Part shown: positions 36,611-46,127 of the stretch, piece after piece
Position numbering within the stretch: the first letter of the stretch is position 1
Layout: each line of letters opens with the position of its first letter
From: Staphylococcus sp. CAG:324
Lineage (GTDB): Bacteria > Bacillota_I > Bacilli_A > ML615J-28 > CAG-313
Assembly (NCBI GenBank): GCA_000433035.1
Contig: FR890814.1
Location: forward strand, 5,443 to 69,442
Direction of reading: 5' to 3'
Length of the DNA stretch: 64,000 bases
The notes under the pieces: generated by a model
Seen by the model: only the letters and a program-made list of their open reading frames with translations
The model's database searches: none
What the model was told of the DNA's origin: nothing
Translations under genes and position numbers: made by a program

Positions 36611-36753
36611 ATGTATCAACCTAACTATGGTTATAATTGTTGCGCACAAACTAATCCTTGTTGTGGCACAGGCAACACATTTGGTGGTTATGGCTACGCT
36701 TTAATCCTTGTGTTATTCATTTTATTAGTAATTATTGGTACTGCACGTTGGTA
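36611..36753 (+). CDS. YjcZ-family small sporulation protein of 47 aa.
   Basis: MYQPNYGYNCCAQTNPCCGTGNTFGGYGYALILVLFILLVIIGTARW. The GYALILVLFILLVIIG hydrophobic tail is typical of YjcZ. The gene has a strong RBS AAGGAGG. It is missing from the ORF track because it is under 60 aa. Confidence 0.6.
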
Positions 36754-36801
36754 ATTTAAACCAAACTCTCAAAAAGGTTCTAGGAGGAACCTTTTTTGAT
36801 T
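36720..36801. repeat. Left copy of an 82-bp direct repeat, comprising the last 34 nt of the yjcZ-like CDS plus its bidirectional terminator (AAAAAGGTTC-taggag-GAACCTTTTT).
   Basis: It matches 45378-45459 at 81 of 82 positions. Confidence 0.8.
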
Positions 36802-38537
36802 TATATTTTATCACTAATCTTTTTTAACATATTGTTAAAAGTAGAATTTTTTCGTTCTCTTAATTGTTTTATAGTTCCATACTCAATAATTTTACCATCA
36901 TTCATTACAATTACTTTGTCACAATTTAAAATATTATAAATACGATGAGAAGTAATCAACATTATTTTATCATTCATTTTATATAATTTACTTAATATAT
37001 CTTTTTCATTTGTTACATCTAGTGCTGAGGTGATTTCATCTAATAAAAATAATTTAGCATTTTTGTATATTGCATTTGCAATATTAATACGTTGAATTTC
37101 ACCACCTGATAAATTATCCTCATAATTTGAAATTTTTGTTTTATCTTTTTCTGGCAAACTTTCAATTAAATTATTTAATTTAGCCTCTTCTATACTTTTT
37201 TGATAATTTTTTTCATCAAATTCAAGTGGATAAATAATATTATCCCTTATACTAACATTAAATAATTTTAAATCTTGTTGTACATATGCAATATTATTTC
37301 TCAAAGAAAATAAACTAATTTTATTTAAATCTATATTATTAATAAGAATTTGTCCTTCATTAGGAATTATGATTCTAGTTATTAAATCAAAAAGTGTTGT
37401 TTTCCCTCCTCCAGACATTCCTACTATACCTAATTTTTCTCCTTTTTCAACTTTAAAATTTAATTTTTTTACTTCGAACAATCCATCACCATATTTAAAA
37501 CTTACATCAATAAATTCAATACTATAGATATCGTCTATATTAATACCATCATATATATTTGTTTCTGGTTCTATGCTATAAATTTCATCCAGCTTTTCCA
37601 TAGAATTTTTTATAATTTTTGAAGAAATATTTACATTTAATAGCACTCTAAAAGAGCTATAAATTTTAGGTATTATTGTTAAAAAAGATATTAATATACC
37701 AGTTGTTATAGTACTAAAATCTTTTATAATATACCATATTCCAATAAAAATTATTACAATATACATTATATTTATTATTAAATCTCCCATTATAAATCTA
37801 TTTAAGCTATGAGTAATTGAAGTCTTTTTTTTATGCTTATAAAGGCTATCAAGCCATAAATTAAATTTTTCATTTTCCTTTTGGTGGCCATTTGTTATTT
37901 TAATTTTTTTTATTCTTTTGCATGAAGTCAAAATTAATTCTTGACCACTTTCTAAAATCTCAATATATTCTTTATCATTTTTTTTACTAATCTTGGAAAT
38001 AAATTTAGCTAAAAAATAAAATAGAGGAAATAAAGCAAAAATAATTATTGCAAATTTTTTATCAATTTTAATCATTGTTATAACAACAATTAATAAAAAT
38101 ATACTTTCAGAAAAAAAGCCAACAATATCATTTACAAAATAAACTTCTCCAATCTTCCCTGTTTCTCTAGTTATTCTTGACATAACCTGAGAATCACTAT
38201 ATTTATTTATTTTTAAATATTTTGCATTTAATACACACTCAAAAGCAGTCCTTCTCAATGATGAAGTAATATAATTACCAAGCTTAGTTGATAAAAATGT
38301 TTTAAAAATATCTAATAATAATAACGATAATGATATACTAATCATTTTAATTATTATTATTATTAACAAATTTACATCTTTATTAGGAACTACTTTATCT
38401 ATGATATCTACTATTATTAATGAATTCTTTAATTTTAAATAGGAAATTGCTATCATTAAAATTATTAATATTATTATTATAAATATTTGTTTTTTTGTAC
38501 AATTTACAAGTATTTTATGTGTATTAATTGTTTTCAT
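36801..38537 (-). CDS. ABC transporter with fused permease and ATPase domains (lasso peptide D-type exporter; RiPP export and immunity).
   Basis: N-terminal 6-TM domain. Walker A GMSGGGKTT, signature LSGGE and Walker B LLDEITSALD. Its stop codon abuts the direct repeat. Confidence 0.75.
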   Translation of the reverse strand: MKTINTHKILVNCTKKQIFIIIILIILMIAISYLKLKNSLIIVDIIDKVVPNKDVNLLIIIIIKMISISLSLLLLDIFKTFLSTKLGNYITSSLRRTAFECVLNAKYLKINKYSDSQVMSRITRETGKIGEVYFVNDIVGFFSESIFLLIVVITMIKIDKKFAIIIFALFPLFYFLAKFISKISKKNDKEYIEILESGQELILTSCKRIKKIKITNGHQKENEKFNLWLDSLYKHKKKTSITHSLNRFIMGDLIINIMYIVIIFIGIWYIIKDFSTITTGILISFLTIIPKIYSSFRVLLNVNISSKIIKNSMEKLDEIYSIEPETNIYDGINIDDIYSIEFIDVSFKYGDGLFEVKKLNFKVEKGEKLGIVGMSGGGKTTLFDLITRIIIPNEGQILINNIDLNKISLFSLRNNIAYVQQDLKLFNVSIRDNIIYPLEFDEKNYQKSIEEAKLNNLIESLPEKDKTKISNYEDNLSGGEIQRINIANAIYKNAKLFLLDEITSALDVTNEKDILSKLYKMNDKIMLITSHRIYNILNCDKVIVMNDGKIIEYGTIKQLRERKNSTFNNMLKKISDKI

Positions 38538-39852
38538 TTGTATACCTCTTGTTAAAAATAGTATATTTTAGATTATAATCTATATCATTTTTTTTATAAT
38601 TTATATTTAAATTACTATTATTTAATTTCTCTATCATATAAAACTTTAATATTTTAAAAACAAGTTGGCACCAATTATAATTAAAATCATTAGTATTATC
38701 ATATATTGCTTTACAACCACCTCCACAATGATAAAATGCAAAACATTTATTACAATTTTTTAATTTATCATTATTATTTTTTACTATATTATTAACATTA
38801 TTATTATCTATTTCTATAGTTTTATTTATCTCCCCTATTTTATATAAATTATTTTTTGAATTTTTATCAAATTGAATGCAAGATGTTAAAAATCCATTTG
38901 GATGACAATATATTGTATTTAACGAAGTTCCTTTACAATATCCATTTAATCTCAATTCTTCACCTATAAAAGATTTAGCTCTTTCTTTTAGTACTTTTCT
39001 AGCATCTTTATATATATTTAAATATTCATCATTACTAATAGTATTTATAAAATTATTTCCATCAATAGTAGGAACATATCTTGTAAACTGAACTGATGAT
39101 AATTTTGGAACATTATTTAAAAAAAATTTAGCAATTTTTTCACCAAATCCAATTGATTTATTGGTTAATACTGTATTAAAACTAACTTTGCAATTATTTT
39201 CAGAAATGTATCTAGCATTTTTAATTACTATCATTGTAATGTCCTTACCAGATATACTCTGCCTAGTAAAACCATTTATTTCTGAAGGTCCATCAATTGA
39301 AAAACATACTTCATTAAAATTTTCACTTAACCATTTAGCTTGATTTATACTAAAAAAACCATTTGTTATTATTCTTTTCAAACAAAGAGTATTATTTTCT
39401 TTGCATTTTTTTATTGCATATTGAATAAATCTTTTTAATAATGAAAAATTATATGTTGGCTCACCACCGCCATGAAAAGTTAAGTCAATCCATGGAGTTT
39501 TTTTATTAATAATTTTAGCATTATTTATTAATATATTTACTATTTTTTTATATTTATTAAAACTTAGAAAACTATTATTACAATTAGTGCCAGAAGATGA
39601 ATAACAATATTTACACTTTAACATACATTTGTTACTTATAATTATTGTAGCAGAATTCCCATAATATTTATTCCCTATTATCAATCTAGTTTTGCTATTA
39701 AATTTATTAATTGTTCTACAACCTAAATACTTAAAAACTATATTATTTATATCTTCTATATCCAAATCATTTGCTTCTATTACTAAATCATATTTTGGAA
39801 CATAATAAAATTTTTCCAATTTAAATACATTTAACACATTTTTTTCCTCCAT
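38524..39852 (-). CDS. Radical SAM enzyme with a C-terminal SPASM domain (RiPP maturase).
   Basis: CMLKCKYC is a Cx3Cx2C motif. The C-terminal Cys cluster is CKGTSLNTIYCHPNGFLTSC...CNKCFAFYHCGGGCKAIY. The ~70-aa N-terminal extension may be an RRE. Confidence 0.75.
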   Translation of the reverse strand: MEEKNVLNVFKLEKFYYVPKYDLVIEANDLDIEDINNIVFKYLGCRTINKFNSKTRLIIGNKYYGNSATIIISNKCMLKCKYCYSSSGTNCNNSFLSFNKYKKIVNILINNAKIINKKTPWIDLTFHGGGEPTYNFSLLKRFIQYAIKKCKENNTLCLKRIITNGFFSINQAKWLSENFNEVCFSIDGPSEINGFTRQSISGKDITMIVIKNARYISENNCKVSFNTVLTNKSIGFGEKIAKFFLNNVPKLSSVQFTRYVPTIDGNNFINTISNDEYLNIYKDARKVLKERAKSFIGEELRLNGYCKGTSLNTIYCHPNGFLTSCIQFDKNSKNNLYKIGEINKTIEIDNNNVNNIVKNNNDKLKNCNKCFAFYHCGGGCKAIYDNTNDFNYNWCQLVFKILKFYMIEKLNNSNLNINYKKNDIDYNLKYTIFNKRYTNENN

Positions 39853-39865
39853 TTAAAACTATAAG

Positions 39866-39884
39866 GGAGGATTAATACCTCCCA
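39866..39884 (-). promoter_or_regulatory. GC-rich intercistronic stem-loop GGGAGG-uauuaau-CCUCCC between the precursor and rSAM genes.
   Basis: 6-bp G/C stem in otherwise ~20 % GC DNA. Only a weak U-tract follows, suggesting a partial terminator or processing/stability element of the kind common after RiPP precursor genes. Confidence 0.4.
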
Positions 39885-39902
39885 CTTTGATAAACGTATT
39901 AA

Positions 39903-40016
39903 TTAAGCACATTTATCATAACCATAACCATCATCATTATCTTTTCCAGTTGAACCAGTTAATTCAAACATATCACCTAAAATAATATATGATGGCTTTT
40001 CATAATTATTATTCAT
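39903..40016 (-). CDS. Lasso peptide precursor of 37 aa: MNNNYEKPSYIILGDMFELTG | STGKDNDDGYGYDKCA.
   Basis: RBS AAAGGAGGTG lies 7 nt upstream. The leader matches YxxPxLx3Gx5Tx (Y5, P8, G14, T20; only L is replaced by Y), with the penultimate leader residue Thr. The core begins with Ser, has Asp at positions 7 and 8 for isopeptide formation, and has bulky Tyr in the tail. This is the only sizeable intergenic gap in the operon. Confidence 0.6.
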   Translation of the reverse strand: MNNNYEKPSYIILGDMFELTGSTGKDNDDGYGYDKCA

Positions 40017-40031
40017 TATTGACACCTCCTT

Positions 40032-41468
40032 TCAGACTTTTAATACGGGAAACCTTGATATTTCAATAAATTGCTTTTTTATTATATTAGAATCAGTAAT
40101 AACTATTTCATCTATTTCTACCCATGAATGAAATTCGAATAAATTAGTAATATGATACGAAGATTTACCAATTACGACTTGAGATGGAATTCCAATAGTA
40201 ATTAGTGCTGTACACAAAGATATTGATCTTTCTAAGCATAGCATACCTTCATTATTTTCTTTACCAATCTTACGTAAAATCGGAATAATTTTACTAACAT
40301 AATTACAAAAATCAATACTAGAATAGTTTAAAGTGTTTTGTTCAATTAAATATTTATTTTTATGAAACAAAGTATTTATTAGTTTTATAGCATAAGAAAC
40401 CCCTTTTTTATGAATTAATGAAATAGATTTTATATAATTTCTAGTCATATGTTCAAAATCCGTAGAATTTATTTCAAAAGAATTTTTGACCAATTCTTCG
40501 TTATACAAAAGAGTCATTAATTTATCATAACAAAATGTTTCATTTATATCCATATATAATTGGTTAACATTACATACATTTGGATAATTAACTATATATT
40601 TATCAACATTATTAGCTAAATTAATTAACAAATTTATTTTCTTGTTTAAAAATGGACTCAATATATTTGTTTGATAATTTAAAATATTTTTTATAAAATT
40701 ATAATTATTCAATAATTCTATTTGATATATATTATTTTTTTTAGTTCCTAAAATTATAACTTTACTTAATTTTATAGTATTTTGATATTGTATATTTTGG
40801 AAATAATATTTTTTACTTTTTGTTAATAAAACACTATCAAAATCTATTGGTTGCTTATCTAAACTTTTTTTTATTCCAATACCAACATTAATTCCTTGAC
40901 AATTCAATTGTTTATCTATTATACAAAAAACATCATCACTCAAAATTTCATAATTATATTTATTATTTAATTCTATAGATATTGATGTCTTACCATACCC
41001 AGACTTTCCCAACAACGCTACTCCTTCATTTGTTGTTTTATTAACCAATAATGCTCCATGAAAAATTATTTTGTTATTTTCTAAAAACGCAATGGATAAT
41101 GGATCTAAAAAATACTGAAAAAACATATTTCTTTTATTATATATTTTTTTTATATAGAAAATAAACTTTTTTTTCAAAAATAACCATTTTGCATAACTTC
41201 CATCTTTATAAAAAATATTATATTCTTGATTGTTTTTATCATAAATAAAACTACCAATTAATAATTCATATTTAATTCCTTTCTTATGAATTTTGGGTAT
41301 ATAATTATTATCAAAATTATATTCAAATATGTAACTTTCCTTATTTGCTATATGATTATTTTTACAATTTGAACCTAAAATATTGAATATAAAATTTGTA
41401 TTTTCTAAATCATTCGTTTTTATTTCAAAATTTTCACCAAATACATTAAATTTTAGTATATCATTCAT
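40032..41468 (-). CDS. Fusion protein with an N-terminal HPr-kinase-like (HprK C-terminal domain) kinase and a C-terminal lasso B2 transglutaminase-like leader peptidase.
   Basis: The kinase part reads FHGALLV...GVALLGKSGYGKTSISIEL...ILSDDVFCI, which follows the HprK P-loop pattern HG.lv..G.G.L..G.SG.GKSE.aLEL....L..DD. The peptidase part reads EGMLCLERSISLCTALITIGIPSQVVIGKSS...FEFHSWVEIDEIVITD, giving a Cys-His-Asp triad as in McjB-type B2. Confidence 0.6.
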   Translation of the reverse strand: MNDILKFNVFGENFEIKTNDLENTNFIFNILGSNCKNNHIANKESYIFEYNFDNNYIPKIHKKGIKYELLIGSFIYDKNNQEYNIFYKDGSYAKWLFLKKKFIFYIKKIYNKRNMFFQYFLDPLSIAFLENNKIIFHGALLVNKTTNEGVALLGKSGYGKTSISIELNNKYNYEILSDDVFCIIDKQLNCQGINVGIGIKKSLDKQPIDFDSVLLTKSKKYYFQNIQYQNTIKLSKVIILGTKKNNIYQIELLNNYNFIKNILNYQTNILSPFLNKKINLLINLANNVDKYIVNYPNVCNVNQLYMDINETFCYDKLMTLLYNEELVKNSFEINSTDFEHMTRNYIKSISLIHKKGVSYAIKLINTLFHKNKYLIEQNTLNYSSIDFCNYVSKIIPILRKIGKENNEGMLCLERSISLCTALITIGIPSQVVIGKSSYHITNLFEFHSWVEIDEIVITDSNIIKKQFIEISRFPVLKV

Positions 41469-41721
41469 TTATCAATATTCCAATACTTATCATACTATTA
41501 ACAAATTCGTTGTAATCTTTTTCAATTATACTTGTATCTATATTATATTTTTCTTTCATAAATTGAATAATTTCAAACGAAGTTTTTCCCTTTTTTATTA
41601 AATCTAAAATACAATAACTTGTATAATTTATAGAAATAAATTGTCCATTATTTAAATTAGTAATAATTGCTTCTTCATCTATTAAAGTAATATCAACATT
41701 TTTAGATATATTTAATTTCAT
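41461..41721 (-). CDS. Lasso B1 protein (PqqD-like RiPP recognition element).
   Basis: At 86 aa it fits a PqqD-family fold (TSFEIIQFMKEKYNIDTSIIEKDYNEFVNSMISIGIL). It overlaps both neighbouring genes. Confidence 0.65.
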   Translation of the reverse strand: MKLNISKNVDITLIDEEAIITNLNNGQFISINYTSYCILDLIKKGKTSFEIIQFMKEKYNIDTSIIEKDYNEFVNSMISIGILINE

Positions 41722-43258
41722 AATTTTCCTCCATCTTTTTTAACCAATTAAAAACCAATATTGTATCTATTATTAAAAATTTATATTTTATTATTTCATT
41801 TTTATTATTTAATATTTTATCTATAACTTTAAAATCAAAGAAACAAGAAAAATTACTTTTCTTAATTTGATTTATTTTATAAATTATTTTATCAATTGAA
41901 TTAAATAATAATTTTTCACTTAAAACTCCATAACAACTTTTTGAATTTCTTGAAATTATAGAAAAAGGTATATTTTCTTTAAAAGCAAATTTTAAAATAG
42001 GTTTAGCAATGATTTTTCCACCATAAGGTAATGCTTTATAAATTTTAGGAATACTATTTGAGAAAGATATTAAATCTTTATCTATATATGGATTTATATC
42101 TATTACATTATATTTATTAGCTAAATATAATCTCATTGCTTCTCTTTGTAATAAAACCGCATATAGTCTTTGATTATTTGACTTAACATTTTCACATTTA
42201 ATAAATGTTTTTTTTCCTTCTATTTGTTCATTTATAACATATGGAACATCTATAAATTCTACAATTCCATTTAAATGATTTAAATACGATTTTTTAAAAA
42301 AACTACTAACATTTATAAATATTTTATCGTCATTAAATCTTTGTAAATATCCTCCAAAAATTCCATCACCATTTAATCCACTTAAAATATACTTTATATT
42401 TTTTTCTTTCATAAATTGGTAGGTTTTATCCCACCAATAAATACTTGTATGAATAAATGGATATATAATATTTTCATTTAATAATAAATATTCATCTATA
42501 TTATTAATTTTATCAGACATATCAATAAATATTAATTGAATATTATATCTTTTACAAAACTCTACTGCAAAATTACTTTCATCCACTTGATAATATTTAT
42601 TTGATGTCCAATGTATACAAATAAAGTCTTTCTTTAATAAATATAAACAATAAGCAATTACAATAGAATCTATTCCACCACTCATTGAAACACAAATTTT
42701 ACTATTTATTCCTTTTGTTCTTTTTTCTACTGACTTAATAACCAATTTTTTTGCTTCTTTTACGTAATCATTAAAAGTATATAAATTATATTTTATATCC
42801 TTTTCAATACAATTTTGATAAAGTATCTTTAATTTATTATTATCTATTGATACTAAAGTTCCATAATCTATTAATTTTATATTATTAAAAGGAAAAAAAT
42901 AATTTCTTTGTATAATTCCTAATATAGCTTGTTTATCAATTTCAATTATTTCTTTTTTTAAATATAAATTATAGTAATCATCTGTTACTAACAGCATATT
43001 ATTTATATTTTTATAATATAATATGACATTTGATGTATTGGATATATATATATAATCTAAACCTCTATAATTAAAAATTAAAATACAGTCTCCATCAATT
43101 TCTTGAAATTTAATACCATTATCTATAAATAAAAGAATTTTTTCAATAATATTTTTAATATCATCAAATATTCTTCCTAATACAATTATTTTGATTAAAT
43201 TATTATGAACTTTAATCTGATATTCTTCCTTATATGTTTTAGTAATTATAATTTTCAT
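41702..43258 (-). CDS. Lasso cyclase C (asparagine synthetase B-like, ATP-dependent macrolactam synthetase).
   Basis: PP-loop SMSGGIDS. Size and neighbourhood fit. Confidence 0.65.
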   Translation of the reverse strand: MKIIITKTYKEEYQIKVHNNLIKIIVLGRIFDDIKNIIEKILLFIDNGIKFQEIDGDCILIFNYRGLDYIYISNTSNVILYYKNINNMLLVTDDYYNLYLKKEIIEIDKQAILGIIQRNYFFPFNNIKLIDYGTLVSIDNNKLKILYQNCIEKDIKYNLYTFNDYVKEAKKLVIKSVEKRTKGINSKICVSMSGGIDSIVIAYCLYLLKKDFICIHWTSNKYYQVDESNFAVEFCKRYNIQLIFIDMSDKINNIDEYLLLNENIIYPFIHTSIYWWDKTYQFMKEKNIKYILSGLNGDGIFGGYLQRFNDDKIFINVSSFFKKSYLNHLNGIVEFIDVPYVINEQIEGKKTFIKCENVKSNNQRLYAVLLQREAMRLYLANKYNVIDINPYIDKDLISFSNSIPKIYKALPYGGKIIAKPILKFAFKENIPFSIISRNSKSCYGVLSEKLLFNSIDKIIYKINQIKKSNFSCFFDFKVIDKILNNKNEIIKYKFLIIDTILVFNWLKKMEENYEIKYI

Positions 43259-43274
43259 AATTAATACCTACATT

Positions 43275-44759
43275 TTATTTTATCAATAATGGTTTTCTAT
43301 AATATGGCTGTATACAAAAACATTTAAAAATAGAATTATTTTTTAATTTATACAAATACATATTAAATCCAATATTTCTATTTATATCTAAATAATGAGG
43401 AAATTTATTTAAATCAATTATTAAAGTTGTTTCTACTAATCCATTCTTAATTTTAACTATTTCATCAATATACCCATAATAAAATTCCTTTTCTTTTTCA
43501 TAATCATATAAAGAATTAAATGTTGGTGCATAAAATAAACTTTTTATTATATTATTATTTATCATACGTAAAGTTATAGGTATATATGGATCTATAAATT
43601 CACCAGTTTTTCTATATCCAAATATATTTAAATGAATTACCATATTTTCTTCCATTCTAGGTTTTATTTGTATATATAAAAGATTATCTTTTTTTATGTA
43701 TTTAAAATCAGTTATTATATTGTTGTAAAATACTAAATGATGAGGTAATACCTTATTTCTTTTTGTAAAATTAAAATAACCTAAATAATATTTTTCAAAA
43801 TATTTAATTAATTCTAAATTATTAAAAAATCTATCAAATATAGCCAAATTATCTAATAAATCATCATTATCTTTAATTTTATTTTTTAATAACTTTTTAC
43901 ATTTCAATAAAATAGTTTTATCATTAAAAATATAACTTAACTCTAAAAATATTTTGGATACCATTTTTAATGAAACATTATTATAACGTAAAATAAAAAT
44001 TATTTCATGATAGTCAAAATAAATAAAATATTTTTTTATGTACAAATATAAATCAATTGCATATTGTAAATTTATTTTTTTTTGATTTCTTAAAAACTCT
44101 ATATTTCTTGTAAACTCTAAATAATATATAATTAAACAACAAAATGTTTCATTTAAATTAAATGTTTTTACATTATTAGATAATATTTCTATTTGATTAA
44201 TTGTTTTTATTAGAGGTTTATACAAATGAAATTTTGTTTTTAATTCAATAGTAATAACTTGTTTTTTATATATTACTAATATCTTTTTTTCTCCACAAAT
44301 TTCAATTGTTTTATTCCTTATATCTTTAAATTTTTTAAATTTATTTCTAACTAAATCTACAAACTTTTCCTCTTCATCATTACTAATAATAATATCTATA
44401 TCATCAAACTGTCTTATATTATGTAAATCATATATTAATTTTTCTAAAATTATTCCTTTATAAAGGATATAATTTATATGGTTTTCTTCAAGTAGCTTTA
44501 TTAATTCAATAAATACTTCATTATATATATTTTTTTTTACTAATAAATATTTTTTTATACTATGAATTTTATTTGCAATATTTAAAAATTTTTTAATATT
44601 TAATAATTTAGAATAAAACCTTAAAAATATTTTTTGATTATATAATAATCTTAGCACTTCCTGACAATCAATGTCTGCAAAATAATCATTTTCTAGATTT
44701 TCATTCCTTATTAAACTTACTATAAATTTTTCTTCTTTTTTTATAATTTTTTCCTCCAT
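43275..44759 (-). CDS. Putative nucleotidyltransferase (NTP_transf_5-like) of the kind found in Firmicute kinase-associated lasso clusters.
   Basis: YKGIILEKLIYDLHNIRQFDDIDIIIS is a GS/hG...D.D-type nucleotidyltransferase motif. Confidence 0.45.
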   Translation of the reverse strand: MEEKIIKKEEKFIVSLIRNENLENDYFADIDCQEVLRLLYNQKIFLRFYSKLLNIKKFLNIANKIHSIKKYLLVKKNIYNEVFIELIKLLEENHINYILYKGIILEKLIYDLHNIRQFDDIDIIISNDEEEKFVDLVRNKFKKFKDIRNKTIEICGEKKILVIYKKQVITIELKTKFHLYKPLIKTINQIEILSNNVKTFNLNETFCCLIIYYLEFTRNIEFLRNQKKINLQYAIDLYLYIKKYFIYFDYHEIIFILRYNNVSLKMVSKIFLELSYIFNDKTILLKCKKLLKNKIKDNDDLLDNLAIFDRFFNNLELIKYFEKYYLGYFNFTKRNKVLPHHLVFYNNIITDFKYIKKDNLLYIQIKPRMEENMVIHLNIFGYRKTGEFIDPYIPITLRMINNNIIKSLFYAPTFNSLYDYEKEKEFYYGYIDEIVKIKNGLVETTLIIDLNKFPHYLDINRNIGFNMYLYKLKNNSIFKCFCIQPYYRKPLLIK

Positions 44760-44782
44760 TAAAATATTTTAAATATAAAATT

Positions 44783-45259
44783 TTATAATAAAAATTCACA
44801 TAATGTTTGATTATTATAATCCCCATAATAATAATCTATCAATTCTAAAGATTTTCCATTTATTTTAAATAACTCTAAATTAATATTTTTTTGTGAAATA
44901 TTTTTAAAAAATTCTATATCTTTTTTTACTATTTTTTGAATTTCTAATTGTTTTATATATGAATTTATAGTAAACTCACTTAAACTTTTAGACAAATTTA
45001 AACTTTCAATTTCATAACAATATTCCATTGAATCATAATTTATTGGCATACTATTGGTAACAAATATATTATTATTATCATTTCTAATTATTATTGGGTA
45101 ATTGCAATTATAATTATCTATAAAATTAATAAATAAAATATAATTAATAAAAGTGATTTGGTTATCAAAAAAGCAATTGATTATTAATTTTTCATTTTTT
45201 AAAATAATTTGTATTTTAATATCTCTTACTTTAGTATTAATAATTTTTTTAGATTCCAT
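44783..45259 (-). CDS. Hypothetical protein of 158 aa, the first gene of the island operon.
   Basis: Intact ORF with a GGAGG RBS. Confidence 0.35.
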   Translation of the reverse strand: MESKKIINTKVRDIKIQIILKNEKLIINCFFDNQITFINYILFINFIDNYNCNYPIIIRNDNNNIFVTNSMPINYDSMEYCYEIESLNLSKSLSEFTINSYIKQLEIQKIVKKDIEFFKNISQKNINLELFKINGKSLELIDYYYGDYNNQTLCEFLL

Positions 45260-45302
45260 AAATACTTAACCTCCATTATATATTTAAATAATTTTCGATT
45301 TT

Positions 45303-45345
45303 ATTATACATTTTTTTGTGTGTATATTTTGTCAATATTTGTAAA
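45303..45345 (-). promoter_or_regulatory. Island operon promoter with an extended -10 TGTATAAT and an upstream TTGACA at non-canonical spacing.
   Basis: Minus strand reads TTGACAAAATATACACACAAAAAAATGTATAATAAAATCG. Confidence 0.4.
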
Positions 45346-45377
45346 AAAAATTAAATAAATAATATTTATATATTATT

Positions 45378-45459
45378 TTTTATTAGTAATTATTGGTACT
45401 GCACGTTGGTAATTTAAACCAAACTCTCAAAAAGGTTCTAGAAGGAACCTTTTTTGATT
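45378..45459. repeat. Right copy of the 82-bp direct repeat. It is an orphan duplicate of the yjcZ 3' end plus terminator and carries one G-to-A difference in the terminator loop.
   Basis: It aligns to 36720-36801. Confidence 0.8.
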
Positions 45460-46127
45460 GAATAATCATTAATAAACTTGTTTTCATTCATTACTAAAAA
45501 AAATATTGATTATTTATAACTTATCAACCATAAAAGTACATCATAGAATACATGTAAATGATAAAAATTTCAAAACATATCAACATTACCAAATAGCCAA
45601 AAGATTGTTCAAGGCAGAAACTATTGAAATATTGAAAGAAGCAAATAAAGAACCATATAAAAATTATTCTCCCTCTTCAACCAGTCTAATTCTAATGCCT
45701 ATTGTTGGCAAAACTGCTCACTATTCTTTCTACCTCAAACAAATACATACATAAAAACTACAATCGGTCAAACTATTACTCAAATATTGACTAAAATGAA
45801 CAATAATGAATTGCTCTTCATCATCTAGTATCATTACAAGTATGGAATAAAAATAGACCTCTTCACAATTGATAAATTACATATGATTTTCTAATGGTTC
45901 TTTAGTAAAATTTAAAATAAATATTATTCTATTCTTCACAATACATGAAGCATTTCAATGTCATTATTTATAATAATACTAGTGCAACTACTATAGATGA
46001 TAAGATAGAATTAGAATACGATATGAAACATAAATTTGGTTAATCAAAAATTTTTTAAAAACTAAGTCTAATTTATTTCTTTTATTCTCTTTTTTTAGTA
46101 TAATAAATTCAAAGAGGTAACAAAATT

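What the first reader, a model, noticed from the sequence alone, without database searches (positions are those of the whole stretch)
43275..45259. Nucleotidyltransferase-like protein and a 158-aa orphan open the lasso operon
The 494-aa protein has an hG...DIDII nucleotidyltransferase motif. The 158-aa protein has no recognisable domain. Both sit upstream of C within the same promoter-driven operon.

Their role is unknown. Candidates are adenylylation or nucleotidylation of the peptide, or a regulatory function. They add to the cluster's novelty.
Basis: inference. Interest (0 to 1): 0.5.

Follow-up and report, generated by a model that had tools for sequence, protein, structure and literature searches.

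The report
Known-type lasso tailoring enzyme plus orphan
The first two genes of this gut-bacterium lasso-peptide operon are an unusually long member of the "uncharacterised nucleotidyltransferase" family that already accompanies peptide kinases in such clusters, and a small real protein whose only known relative sits in a similar cluster, so the finding is genuine but largely explained by known biology.

Summary
Both ORFs are real, at the stated coordinates. They are the first two genes of a tightly packed eight-gene operon: orphan, NTase, C, B1, kinase-B2 fusion, precursor, rSAM/SPASM, ABC exporter.

**The 494-aa protein.** It belongs to Pfam PF14907 (NTP_transf_5), with G102, D120-x-D122 and E172 intact. 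This is the family of LppN, and by the papers' description of PsmN. These NTP transferases travel with HprK-like peptide kinases in Bacillota lasso and LPP clusters. An HprK-like domain is present here, fused to B2. The most likely role is decoration of a kinase-installed phosphate on the peptide. PsmN adds hexose in this way.

It differs from the usual family members in four ways:
- It is about 100 aa longer, and only residues 5-213 align with ordinary members.
- It lies upstream of C rather than between B2 and D.
- The precursor ends in Ala, not Ser.
- Its two long-form relatives sit in rSAM + kinase + ABC clusters that lack lasso enzymes.

**The 158-aa protein.** It has one distant homologue among 1.84 billion representatives (36% identity, same length). 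That homologue sits in one of those rSAM/kinase/NTase clusters. The orphan is therefore a genuine accessory protein of unknown role.

**The cluster as a whole.** It is an 8.66-kb presence/absence island bounded by 89-bp direct repeats.

Verdict: a new variant of a known kind, of moderate-to-low interest.

The parts
44783..45259 (-). 158-aa orphan, first gene of the operon. Predicted cytoplasmic and mostly beta-strand. Member of a two-member protein family.
43275..44759 (-). 494-aa long-form NTP_transf_5 (PF14907) protein, second gene of the operon.
   Evidence: NCBI names the identical protein 'nucleotidyltransferase family protein' (MFR1524758.1, CDC70368.1). Full-length homologues are P0002 (33-37% identity, 498 aa) and the L063 protein (25% identity, 486 aa).
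43995..44675 (-). NTase domain (residues 29-255) of the 494-aa protein.
44394..44402 (-). Predicted metal-binding D120-I-D122 of the NTase. This is the counterpart of PsmN D134/D136.
   Evidence: Invariant in all three long forms, together with G102 and E172. It lies within RQFDDIDI, which is shared with ordinary family members. The PsmN D134A/D136A mutant is inactive (PMC6993621).
43275..43712 (-). C-terminal extension (residues about 350-494) of the long form, predicted all-beta. It contains the conserved motif GYRKTGEF.
45303..45310 (-). Extended -10-like element TGTATAAT upstream of the orphan. Candidate operon promoter.
   Evidence: Read from the sequence. Promoter-like sites are not enriched in this AT-rich DNA, so this is inference only.
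40032..41468 (-). 478-aa fusion of an HprK-like kinase domain (P-loop GKSGYGKTS and SDD) with the lasso leader peptidase B2. Predicted partner that makes the NTase's substrate.
   Evidence: Hpr_kinase_C at residues 134-265 (E 1.2e-3, below the cut-off). Transglut_core3 at 410-467 (31.2 bits, cut-off 26). NF033537 lasso B2 and TIGR00679 hits. The P-loop region aligns with the L001 312-aa kinase-like protein.
39903..40016 (-). Precursor peptide, 37 aa: MNNNYEKPSYIILGDMFELTGSTGKDNDDGYGYDKCA. Predicted core: STGKDNDDGYGYDKCA.
   Evidence: AAGGAGG lies 8 nt upstream of the ATG at 40016, and the listed GTG is part of the RBS. The exact 37-aa protein is on more than 1000 contigs. A YxxP motif is present with Thr at -2. 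The C-terminal ...CA is conserved in the full-length variants of its 90%-identity cluster.
41702..43258 (-). Lasso cyclase C (Asn synthase-like).
   Evidence: PF00733 61.6 bits; NF033535 hit.
41461..41721 (-). B1 / PqqD-type RiPP recognition element.
   Evidence: PF05402 41 bits; lasso PqqD NCBIfam hits.
38524..39852 (-). Radical SAM/SPASM maturase (PapB/SCIFF-like).
   Evidence: PF04055; TIGR04085 SPASM above its cut-off; best NCBIfam match NF047865 PapB.
36801..38537 (-). MsbA-like ABC exporter, last gene of the operon.
   Evidence: ABC_membrane + ABC_tran; best NCBIfam match TIGR02203 MsbA.
36713..36801 (.). Left copy of the 89-bp direct repeat bounding the island. It comprises the 3' end of a yjcZ-like gene plus its terminator hairpin.
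   Evidence: Terminator at 36771-36796. YjcZ_2 Pfam hit on the 47-aa gene.
45373..45461 (.). Right copy of the direct repeat, just upstream of the operon promoter region.
   Evidence: The empty-site strains L064, L066 and L071 carry a single copy.

Best explanation
**The 494-aa protein.** It is a catalytically competent Pol-beta-type nucleotidyltransferase-fold enzyme of Pfam family PF14907. This is the family of LppN. By the papers' description it is also the family of PsmN. Both are the 'NTP transferases' that accompany HprK-like peptide kinases, a discrete RRE and an MsbA-like exporter in Bacillota lasso and linear-polyphosphorylated-peptide clusters.

**Proposed pathway.**
1. The B1 RRE binds the YxxP leader.
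2. The HprK-like domain fused to B2 phosphorylates a hydroxyl of the precursor. Because the peptide ends in Ala, the target is probably Ser1 or Thr2 of the core rather than a C-terminal Ser.
3. The NTase then uses a nucleotide-activated donor to add a group to that phosphate. PsmN adds hexose. A nucleotidyl group is the alternative.
4. B2 and C form the lasso, the rSAM/SPASM enzyme adds a cross-link, and the ABC pump exports the product.

**The 158-aa protein.** It is a real, non-catalytic-looking beta-rich accessory protein. It co-occurs with this kinase / long NTase / rSAM / exporter module in its only two known occurrences. It most likely helps one of these enzymes, or protects the producer.

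**Shown versus inferred.**
- Shown: gene content, family membership, intact motifs, co-occurrence, and membership of one mobile unit.
- Inferred: the order of steps, the acceptor residue, the group transferred, and the role of the orphan.
For: **Family and active site.**
- PF14907 is matched above its cut-off.
- G102, D120xD122 and E172 are invariant in all three long forms.
- RQFDDIDI is shared with ordinary family members; hhalign gives 97.8% probability.
- The NTase fold is recovered even from a poor model. One of the hits, ANT(2'') entry 4xje, was also reported for PsmN (PMC6993621).

**Link to LppN and PsmN.**
- LppN-type 'putative NTP transferase' equals NTP_transf_5 in Popov 2026 Supplementary Data 2: 140 copies around 126 SpI genes.
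- PsmN needs PsmK-made phosphate and adds 162 or 324 Da.

**Conserved neighbours.**
- An HprK-like domain with an intact P-loop and SDD lies in the same operon.
- Every long-form NTase locus also has an HprK-like protein, an rSAM, an ABC exporter and a small precursor: L001 and L063.
- A cyanobacterial short-form NTase also neighbours an HprK-like gene (L009).

**The orphan.**
- Its only distant homologue lies in L063, together with a long NTase.
- The orphan and the NTase are gained or lost together with the lasso genes as one 8.66-kb island.
Against: - The precursor has no C-terminal Ser, the acceptor used by PadeK and PsmK. The full-length variants end in ...CA. The acceptor here is therefore a guess.
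- The HprK-like match is below Pfam's cut-off (18.8 against 33.3 bits). Kinase activity is inferred from motifs.
- No PF14907 enzyme has been reconstituted in vitro. Deleting lppN changed nothing in B. subtilis. PsmN could act indirectly.
- Residues 214-494 do not align with ordinary family members. The long forms might therefore do something different.
- L001 has a long NTase but no orphan, so the orphan is not an obligate NTase partner.
- Both AF2 models are low-confidence, with pLDDT of 50 and 56.
Confidence: 0.6

Rival explanations
1. The NTase directly nucleotidylates (AMP- or UMP-ylates) the peptide on a Ser, Thr or Tyr hydroxyl or on the phosphate, rather than adding a sugar.
Against: The only product data for the family show +162 and +324 Da dependent on prior phosphorylation. 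No nucleotidylated species was reported.
Confidence: 0.2
2. The long-form NTase and the orphan belong functionally to the rSAM/kinase/exporter module and not to lasso chemistry. The window cluster would then be a hybrid in which this module was joined to C/B1/B2. The orphan would serve the rSAM/SPASM enzyme, for example as a peptide-presenting or scaffolding partner.
For: Neither of the other two long-form NTase loci has a cyclase or B2, but both have rSAMs. The orphan occurs only in the two loci whose rSAM/SPASM proteins resemble each other (E 6e-6). It is absent from L001, which has different rSAMs.
Against: There are only three loci, so the co-occurrence statistics are weak. The orphan shows no similarity to RRE/PqqD or to any other cluster protein by hhalign. 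In the window it sits next to the NTase, whereas in L063 it lies 330 nt after an unrelated 447-aa gene.
Confidence: 0.25
3. The orphan is a self-protection (immunity) protein that binds the mature peptide in the producer.
For: It is small, cytoplasmic, beta-rich and has no catalytic motifs. It lies at an end of the operon in both loci. In L063 a 330-nt gap precedes it, which could hold its own promoter.
Against: Lasso clusters normally rely on the ABC exporter for immunity, and one is present here. The two precursors are unrelated in their core sequence, yet the orphans are 36% identical.
Confidence: 0.15
4. One or both ORFs are not functional genes: a chance ORF, or a decaying remnant carried along with the island.
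For: No dN/dS can be computed, because the orphan and the NTase are 100% identical in five independent metagenome contigs.
Against: The chance probability is about 6e-9 for 158 codons and about 1e-26 for 494 codons. RBSs are present. Full-length divergent homologues of the same length exist in related clusters. The catalytic residues are intact.
Confidence: 0.02

Closest known systems
PsmN, the NTP transferase of the pseudomycoidin lasso cluster, Bacillus pseudomycoides DSM 12442 (Zyubko et al. 2019, PMC6993621)
   Same: - It is an 'uncharacterised nucleotidyltransferase' family protein encoded in a Bacillota lasso cluster alongside an HprK-like kinase, split B1/B2, C and an ABC exporter.
- The DxD pair sits at a similar position (D134/D136 against D120/D122).
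   Different: - PsmN lies between B2 and D. Here the gene lies upstream of C.
- The PsmA core ends in the phospho-acceptor Ser. Here the core ends in Ala.
- The protein here carries about 280 C-terminal residues that do not align with ordinary family members.
- The kinase here is fused to B2.
- An rSAM/SPASM enzyme and the 158-aa protein are extra here.
- A direct alignment with PsmN was not possible.
LppN of the linear polyphosphorylated peptide (LPP) clusters, Paenibacillus alginolyticus DSM5050 (Popov et al. 2026, PMC13381572)
   Same: - Same Pfam family, NTP_transf_5.
- Same conserved neighbours: a discrete PqqD RRE, an HprK-like kinase and an MsbA-like exporter.
- The precursor leader carries a YxxP motif.
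- LppK phosphorylates a Ser near the N-terminus of the core (Ser3), which is the kind of acceptor available here (Ser1/Thr2).
   Different: - LPP clusters are defined by an SpI-type leader peptidase and lack a cyclase. The window has C and B2 and no SpI.
- The closest homologue's cluster (L001) does have an S24/S26 domain, fused to an rSAM.
- rSAM genes do not appear in the stored part of their co-occurrence table.
- LppN showed no activity in their host.
PadeK / PsmK HprK-like lasso peptide kinases
   Same: The predicted upstream partner has the same P-loop and acidic pair: GKSGYGKTS ... SDD, compared with PsmK D158/D159.
   Different: - Here it is the N-terminal domain of a 478-aa fusion with B2, not a separate protein.
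- Its Pfam score is sub-threshold.
- Its substrate lacks the C-terminal Ser.
Antibiotic nucleotidyltransferases LnuA and ANT(2'')-Ia (PDB 4wh5, 4xje)
   Different: - No sequence similarity is detectable.
- They are small single-domain resistance enzymes acting on small molecules.
- They are not embedded in RiPP operons.

Membership tests
Pfam PF14907 NTP_transf_5 (uncharacterised nucleotidyltransferase) | Profile HMM score above the curated gathering threshold | tested here: met
   44.9 bits against 31.2, residues 29-255. The L063 long form scores 61.3 bits. P0002 carries a precomputed PF14907 annotation.
Pfam PF14907 NTP_transf_5 (uncharacterised nucleotidyltransferase) | Pol-beta-type active-site pattern: hG, then DxD, then a third carboxylate on a later strand | tested here: met
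   G102, D120, D122 and E172 are invariant in the three long forms. The RQFDDIDI block is shared with four ordinary members.
Pfam PF14907 NTP_transf_5 (uncharacterised nucleotidyltransferase) | Nucleotidyltransferase fold | tested here: inconclusive
Pfam PF14907 NTP_transf_5 (uncharacterised nucleotidyltransferase) | Overall architecture of ordinary members (about 390-400 aa, alignable beyond the NTase core) | tested here: not met
   Ordinary members retrieved are 391-403 aa. Only residues 5-213 of the long forms align with them. The long form has been seen in just three protein clusters.
PsmN/LppN-type tailoring NTP transferases of paeninodin-like lasso and LPP clusters | Same protein family as the characterised examples | tested here: met
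   LppN-type genes are labelled NTP_transf_5 in Popov 2026 Supplementary Data 2. PsmN is described as an uncharacterised NTP transferase. The PsmN sequence itself was not compared.
PsmN/LppN-type tailoring NTP transferases of paeninodin-like lasso and LPP clusters | Encoded together with an HprK-like peptide kinase, a discrete RRE and an MsbA-like exporter | tested here: met
   Hpr_kinase_C/TIGR00679 hits with an intact P-loop and SDD in the 478-aa protein; PqqD; best ABC match TIGR02203 MsbA. The same set occurs in L001 and L063, except that L063 has no discrete PqqD.
PsmN/LppN-type tailoring NTP transferases of paeninodin-like lasso and LPP clusters | Precursor offers the known phospho-acceptor (a C-terminal Ser in paeninodin and pseudomycoidin) | tested here: not met
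   The core ends ...DKCA in the window and in the full-length variants of its 90%-identity cluster. The L001 and L063 candidate precursors do end in Ser. An LPP-like N-proximal Ser/Thr is available (Ser1, Thr2).
PsmN/LppN-type tailoring NTP transferases of paeninodin-like lasso and LPP clusters | Typical gene position between B2 and D, or fusion to B2 | tested here: not met
   Here it is the second gene, upstream of C. The typical position is described in PMC8498205.
PsmN/LppN-type tailoring NTP transferases of paeninodin-like lasso and LPP clusters | Kinase-dependent addition of hexose to the peptide phosphate | not testable with these tools
   This needs expression and mass spectrometry.
Paeninodin-like (Bacillota) lasso peptide cluster | Asn-synthase-like cyclase C, split B1 (PqqD) and B2 (transglutaminase core), ABC exporter, and a precursor with YxxP and Thr at -2 | tested here: met
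   for the enzymes. for the precursor: Y at -17, P at -14, T at -2, and Asp at core positions 7 and 8 available for ring closure.
LPP (linear polyphosphorylated peptide) clusters | SpI (S24/S26-type) leader peptidase and absence of a cyclase | tested here: not met
   No S24/S26 hit in any window protein, and C is present. In L001 the feature is met: there is a Peptidase_S24 domain (24.4 bits, cut-off 23.3) fused to an rSAM, and no cyclase.
Any described family, for the 158-aa protein | Significant match to a curated profile or to a solved structure | tested here: not met

The most novel reading that the evidence does not exclude
The long-form NTP_transf_5 enzyme and the 158-aa protein together form a previously undescribed two-component tailoring step. 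The small protein would be the 'missing partner' that Popov et al. suspected LppN-type enzymes need. The step would install a phosphate-linked sugar or nucleotide on a non-C-terminal residue of an rSAM-cross-linked lasso peptide. The peptide is made by a widespread human-gut bacterium, so the product would be a new structural class: a lasso combined with an rSAM cross-link and a phosphoglycosyl or nucleotidyl group.
Probability: 0.12. Interest if true: 0.65.

Novelty: new variant of a known kind. Interest (0 to 1): 0.35.

Why it matters
**An open chemical question.** PF14907 enzymes are common in Bacillota RiPP clusters, yet their chemistry is still unresolved. PsmN has only genetic evidence. 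LppN was silent in a heterologous host.

**Why this locus is useful.**
- It is compact, self-contained and naturally mobile: eight genes in 8.66 kb.
- It comes from a prevalent gut organism. The identical NTase is on 558 contigs and the precursor on more than 1000.
- It pairs a long-form NTase with a kinase domain, an rSAM enzyme and a co-occurring small protein. That makes it a tidy system for asking what these NTases do and whether they need a partner.

**Consequence for genome mining.** Taken alone, the NTase should be read as an expected accessory, not as a sign of a new pathway.

Tried and rejected
**Word-indexed homology searches.** With the 494-aa protein, and with the two-sequence profile, these returned only the protein's own cluster and P0002. 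The 8000-candidate limit was filled by low-complexity AT-rich proteins.

**Public collection scans.**
- The GTDB genome scan found no copy of the long form, only four distant N-terminal-domain relatives.
- The first JGI metagenome scan found nothing.
- A scan for the C-terminal motif GYRKTGEF gave 53 loci, none a true relative by tblastn.
- tblastn against plasmids found nothing.

**Structure.**
- Both AF2 models are low-confidence.
- The AFDB Foldseek library was unavailable.
- PDB sequence hits for the orphan are AT-rich-organism proteins at E >= 0.028, which I judged compositional.

**Ideas tested and rejected for the orphan.** By phmmer and hhalign it is not a diverged RRE, kinase N-domain, NTase C-domain, cyclase N-domain, B2 region or rSAM N-terminal region. 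All comparisons gave probability below 1.3%. The L063 447-aa protein is not a hidden NTase paralogue.

**Selection analysis.** dN/dS across strains was impossible, because there are no differences in five contigs.

**Assembly artefacts.** The alternative C-termini in P0006 and P0007 are contig-end artefacts. L004 diverges from the window 134 nt before its end.

**Literature.** Zhu et al. 2016 (PMC4919450) is not held.
Full report
**1. Observation**

The region holds two minus-strand ORFs exactly as described: 44783-45259 (158 aa) and 43275-44759 (494 aa). They open a tightly packed eight-gene minus-strand array:

| Gene | Coordinates | Notes |
|---|---|---|
| Orphan | 45259-44783 | 158 aa |
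| NTase | 44759-43275 | 494 aa |
| Lasso cyclase C | 43258-41702 | Asn_synthase |
| B1 | 41721-41461 | PqqD |
| HprK-like domain + B2 | 41468-40032 | 478-aa fusion with a transglutaminase core |
| Precursor | 40016-39903 | 37 aa |
| rSAM/SPASM | 39852-38524 | PapB/SCIFF-like |
| ABC exporter | 38537-36801 | MsbA-like |

- Gaps between genes are at most 23 nt, or the genes overlap.
- The only terminator-like hairpin inside the array follows the precursor gene, at 39883-39865.
- Upstream of the orphan are a GGAGG and an extended -10-like TGTATAAT. Promoter-like hexamers are not enriched in DNA this AT-rich, so the promoter is an inference.
- The island is 18-20% GC, against 28-30% in the flanks.
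- On this strand P(stop) is 0.11 per codon. A 158-codon open frame has p of about 6e-9 per start.

**2. The 494-aa protein**

*Family membership*
- Residues 29-255 match Pfam PF14907 NTP_transf_5 above the gathering threshold: 44.9 against 31.2 bits. NCBI already names the identical sequence 'nucleotidyltransferase family protein'.
D120-I-D122. With E172, these residues are invariant in the three long-form proteins I could assemble.
- The block RQFDDIDI is shared with ordinary 391-403-aa family members. A profile-profile comparison gives 97.8% probability, but only over residues 5-213.

*Structure*
- The AF2 model is poor, with pLDDT 50.
- The last 140 or so residues are predicted all-beta and resemble Ig/CBM-like sandwiches. 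This is low-confidence.

*Rarity of the long form*
- The word-indexed searches of 5.8 billion proteins returned one other protein, P0002: 498 aa, 33-37% identity over the full length.
- A third long form (486 aa, 25% identity) turned up through the orphan.

**3. Context of the relatives**

| Locus | Content | Evidence |
|---|---|---|
| L001 (holds P0002) | 37-aa precursor ending ...CYS; PqqD; rSAM/SPASM with a fused S24/S26 peptidase domain; a second rSAM; 312-aa HprK-like protein; ABC exporter; long NTase. No cyclase, no B2. | |
| L063 | Long NTase; 52-aa Cys-rich precursor ending ...CGCS; ABC exporter; rSAM/SPASM; 294-aa P-loop protein with the HprK-like G-x-SG-x-GKS ... SDD pattern; 447-aa unknown; the orphan's homologue. 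No cyclase. | |
| L009 (cyanobacterial) | A short-form NTase that also neighbours an HprK-like gene. | |

The constant companions of the NTase are therefore a peptide kinase, an exporter and a small precursor, not the lasso enzymes.

**4. Literature**

- HprK-like kinases and 'uncharacterised NTP transferases' are described as typical secondary-modification enzymes of paeninodin-like lasso clusters. The NTase usually lies between B2 and D, and is sometimes fused to B2 (PMC8498205). It was seen in about 30% of the rumen genomes analysed (PMC7533575).
- In pseudomycoidin, PsmK (poly)phosphorylates the C-terminal Ser. PsmN is required for one or two hexoses on that phosphate, and D134A/D136A abolishes this. 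The authors leave open whether PsmN is itself the glycosyl-transferring enzyme (PMC6993621; PMC9266682).
- Popov et al. [quoted passage not shown] Only about one-third of these clusters are linked to lasso enzymes.
  - LppK phosphorylates Ser3 of the core.
  - Deleting lppN had no effect in their host, and they suspect a missing partner (PMC13381572).
  - Their supplementary table labels the NTP transferase as NTP_transf_5.

The window protein is thus a member of a known accessory family, and L001 looks like an LPP-type cluster with rSAMs added.

**5. How it most likely works**

1. The RRE binds the YxxP leader: Y at -17, P at -14, T at -2, giving the core STGKDNDDGYGYDKCA.
2. The kinase domain fused to B2, which has an intact P-loop and SDD, phosphorylates a hydroxyl.
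3. The NTase decorates the phosphate from a nucleotide-activated donor.
4. B2 and C make the lasso, the rSAM enzyme cross-links it, and the pump exports it.

The main discrepancy is the acceptor. The precursor ends in Ala, and this is conserved across the full-length variants of its 90%-identity cluster, with the exact sequence on more than 1000 contigs. The kinase must therefore use another residue, plausibly Ser1 or Thr2, as in LPPs. Alternatively, the chemistry differs. The acceptor, the group transferred and the order of steps are all inferences.

**6. The 158-aa protein**

- No curated family or solved structure matches it.
- An exhaustive phmmer against 1.84 billion representatives found only two things beyond its own cluster: a 46-aa fragment from the same species, and P0083. 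P0083 is 158 aa, 36% identical and matches at E 3.8e-10.
- Motifs shared with P0083 are P-[IV]-[IL]-IRN, PINYD-M-Y--EIE, NIN-E-F-IN and YG-Y-NQ-LCE. P0083 lies in L063.
- It resembles no other protein of the three clusters.
- It is predicted to be mostly beta-strand. By reading the sequence, I see no hydrophobic stretch long enough to span a membrane.

It is a real accessory protein of this module. Partner of the NTase or kinase, helper of the rSAM enzyme, and immunity protein all remain open. Its absence from L001 argues against an obligate NTase subunit.

**7. One mobile unit**

- Strains of the same species exist with and without the cluster.
- In L064, L066 and L071 the yjcZ-like gene is followed directly by the def intergenic region.
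- In L065 and L067-L070 the eight genes are inserted.
- The junctions are an 89-bp direct repeat, at 36713-36801 and 45373-45461. It consists of the 3' end of yjcZ plus its terminator, and it is present once in empty sites.

The orphan and the NTase are therefore gained and lost together with the lasso genes.

**8. Verdict**

The NTase is an expected accessory with a known precedent and a kinase partner in the same operon.
- What is new:
  - the long form and its unaligned C-terminal 280 residues
  - the gene position upstream of C
  - the kinase-B2 fusion
  - a precursor with no C-terminal Ser
  - the association with an rSAM enzyme
  - a two-member orphan family

The organism is the human-gut MAG species 'Staphylococcus sp. 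CAG:324'. Identical housekeeping proteins from the window (for example UvrC) are also deposited under 'Bacilli bacterium' and 'Acholeplasmatales bacterium' MAGs. I rate it a new variant of a known kind, with interest 0.35.

Noticed in passing
window 36713-36801 and 45373-45461 (island 36802-45372): The whole eight-gene cluster is an 8.66-kb presence/absence island bounded by an 89-bp direct repeat, made of the 3' end of a yjcZ-like gene plus its terminator. Metagenome contigs of the same species show both filled sites (L065, L067-L070) and empty sites (L064, L066, L071) that carry a single repeat copy. No integrase or transposase lies inside the island. Its GC is 18-20% against 28-30% in the flanks.
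   Followed up: yes
window 40032-41468 (-): The HprK-like kinase domain (P-loop GKSGYGKTS, SDD) is fused N-terminally to the lasso leader peptidase B2. The literature I read mentions NTase-B2 fusions and separate kinases, but not this fusion.
   Followed up: partly
window 38524-39852 (-) and 39903-40016 (-): A PapB/SCIFF-like rSAM/SPASM maturase sits inside a lasso operon. The 16-aa predicted core (STGKDNDDGYGYDKCA) has one Cys and five Asp. This suggests a thioether-type cross-link on a lasso peptide. My literature search found no described rSAM-cross-linked lasso peptide.
   Followed up: partly
window 39865-40030 (-): The precursor starts at ATG 40016 (37 aa), not at the GTG 40025 listed by the ORF finder. 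That GTG is part of the AAGGAGGTG ribosome-binding site. A GC-rich hairpin (39883-39865) directly follows the precursor gene and may act as an attenuator that sets the precursor-to-enzyme ratio.
   Followed up: partly
window 44745-44759 and 39838-39852 (-): Both the NTase and the rSAM ORFs begin with ATGGAGGAAAAA, so the ATG is embedded in a GGAGG. For the rSAM gene, public annotations use a start 5 codons downstream (437-aa members of its cluster). The NTase may likewise start at Ile5 or Ile6, which matches the N-terminus of P0002.
   Followed up: partly
L001 1042-2379: The closest NTase homologue's cluster encodes an rSAM/SPASM protein with a C-terminal S24/S26 signal-peptidase-like domain (24.4 bits, above the cut-off). 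It also encodes a second rSAM, PqqD, an HprK-like protein, an ABC exporter and the NTase. It looks like an LPP-type cluster in which the leader peptidase is fused to an rSAM enzyme.
   Followed up: partly
L063 294-2097 and 11751-13455: The cluster holding the orphan's homologue is flanked on each side by paralogous gene pairs. One member of each pair is a 383- or 371-aa protein (E 1.8e-59 to each other, no Pfam hit). The other is a secreted-looking 162- or 146-aa protein. The 162-aa one contains four repeats of IIRDDDNDEGT[LI]ICSIG. Their function is unknown.
   Followed up: no
L004 7633-7766; proteins P0006, P0007: Some metagenome contigs break or turn chimeric inside the 3' end of the orphan gene, giving proteins with unrelated C-termini. 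I judged these to be assembly artefacts, not alleles.
   Followed up: partly
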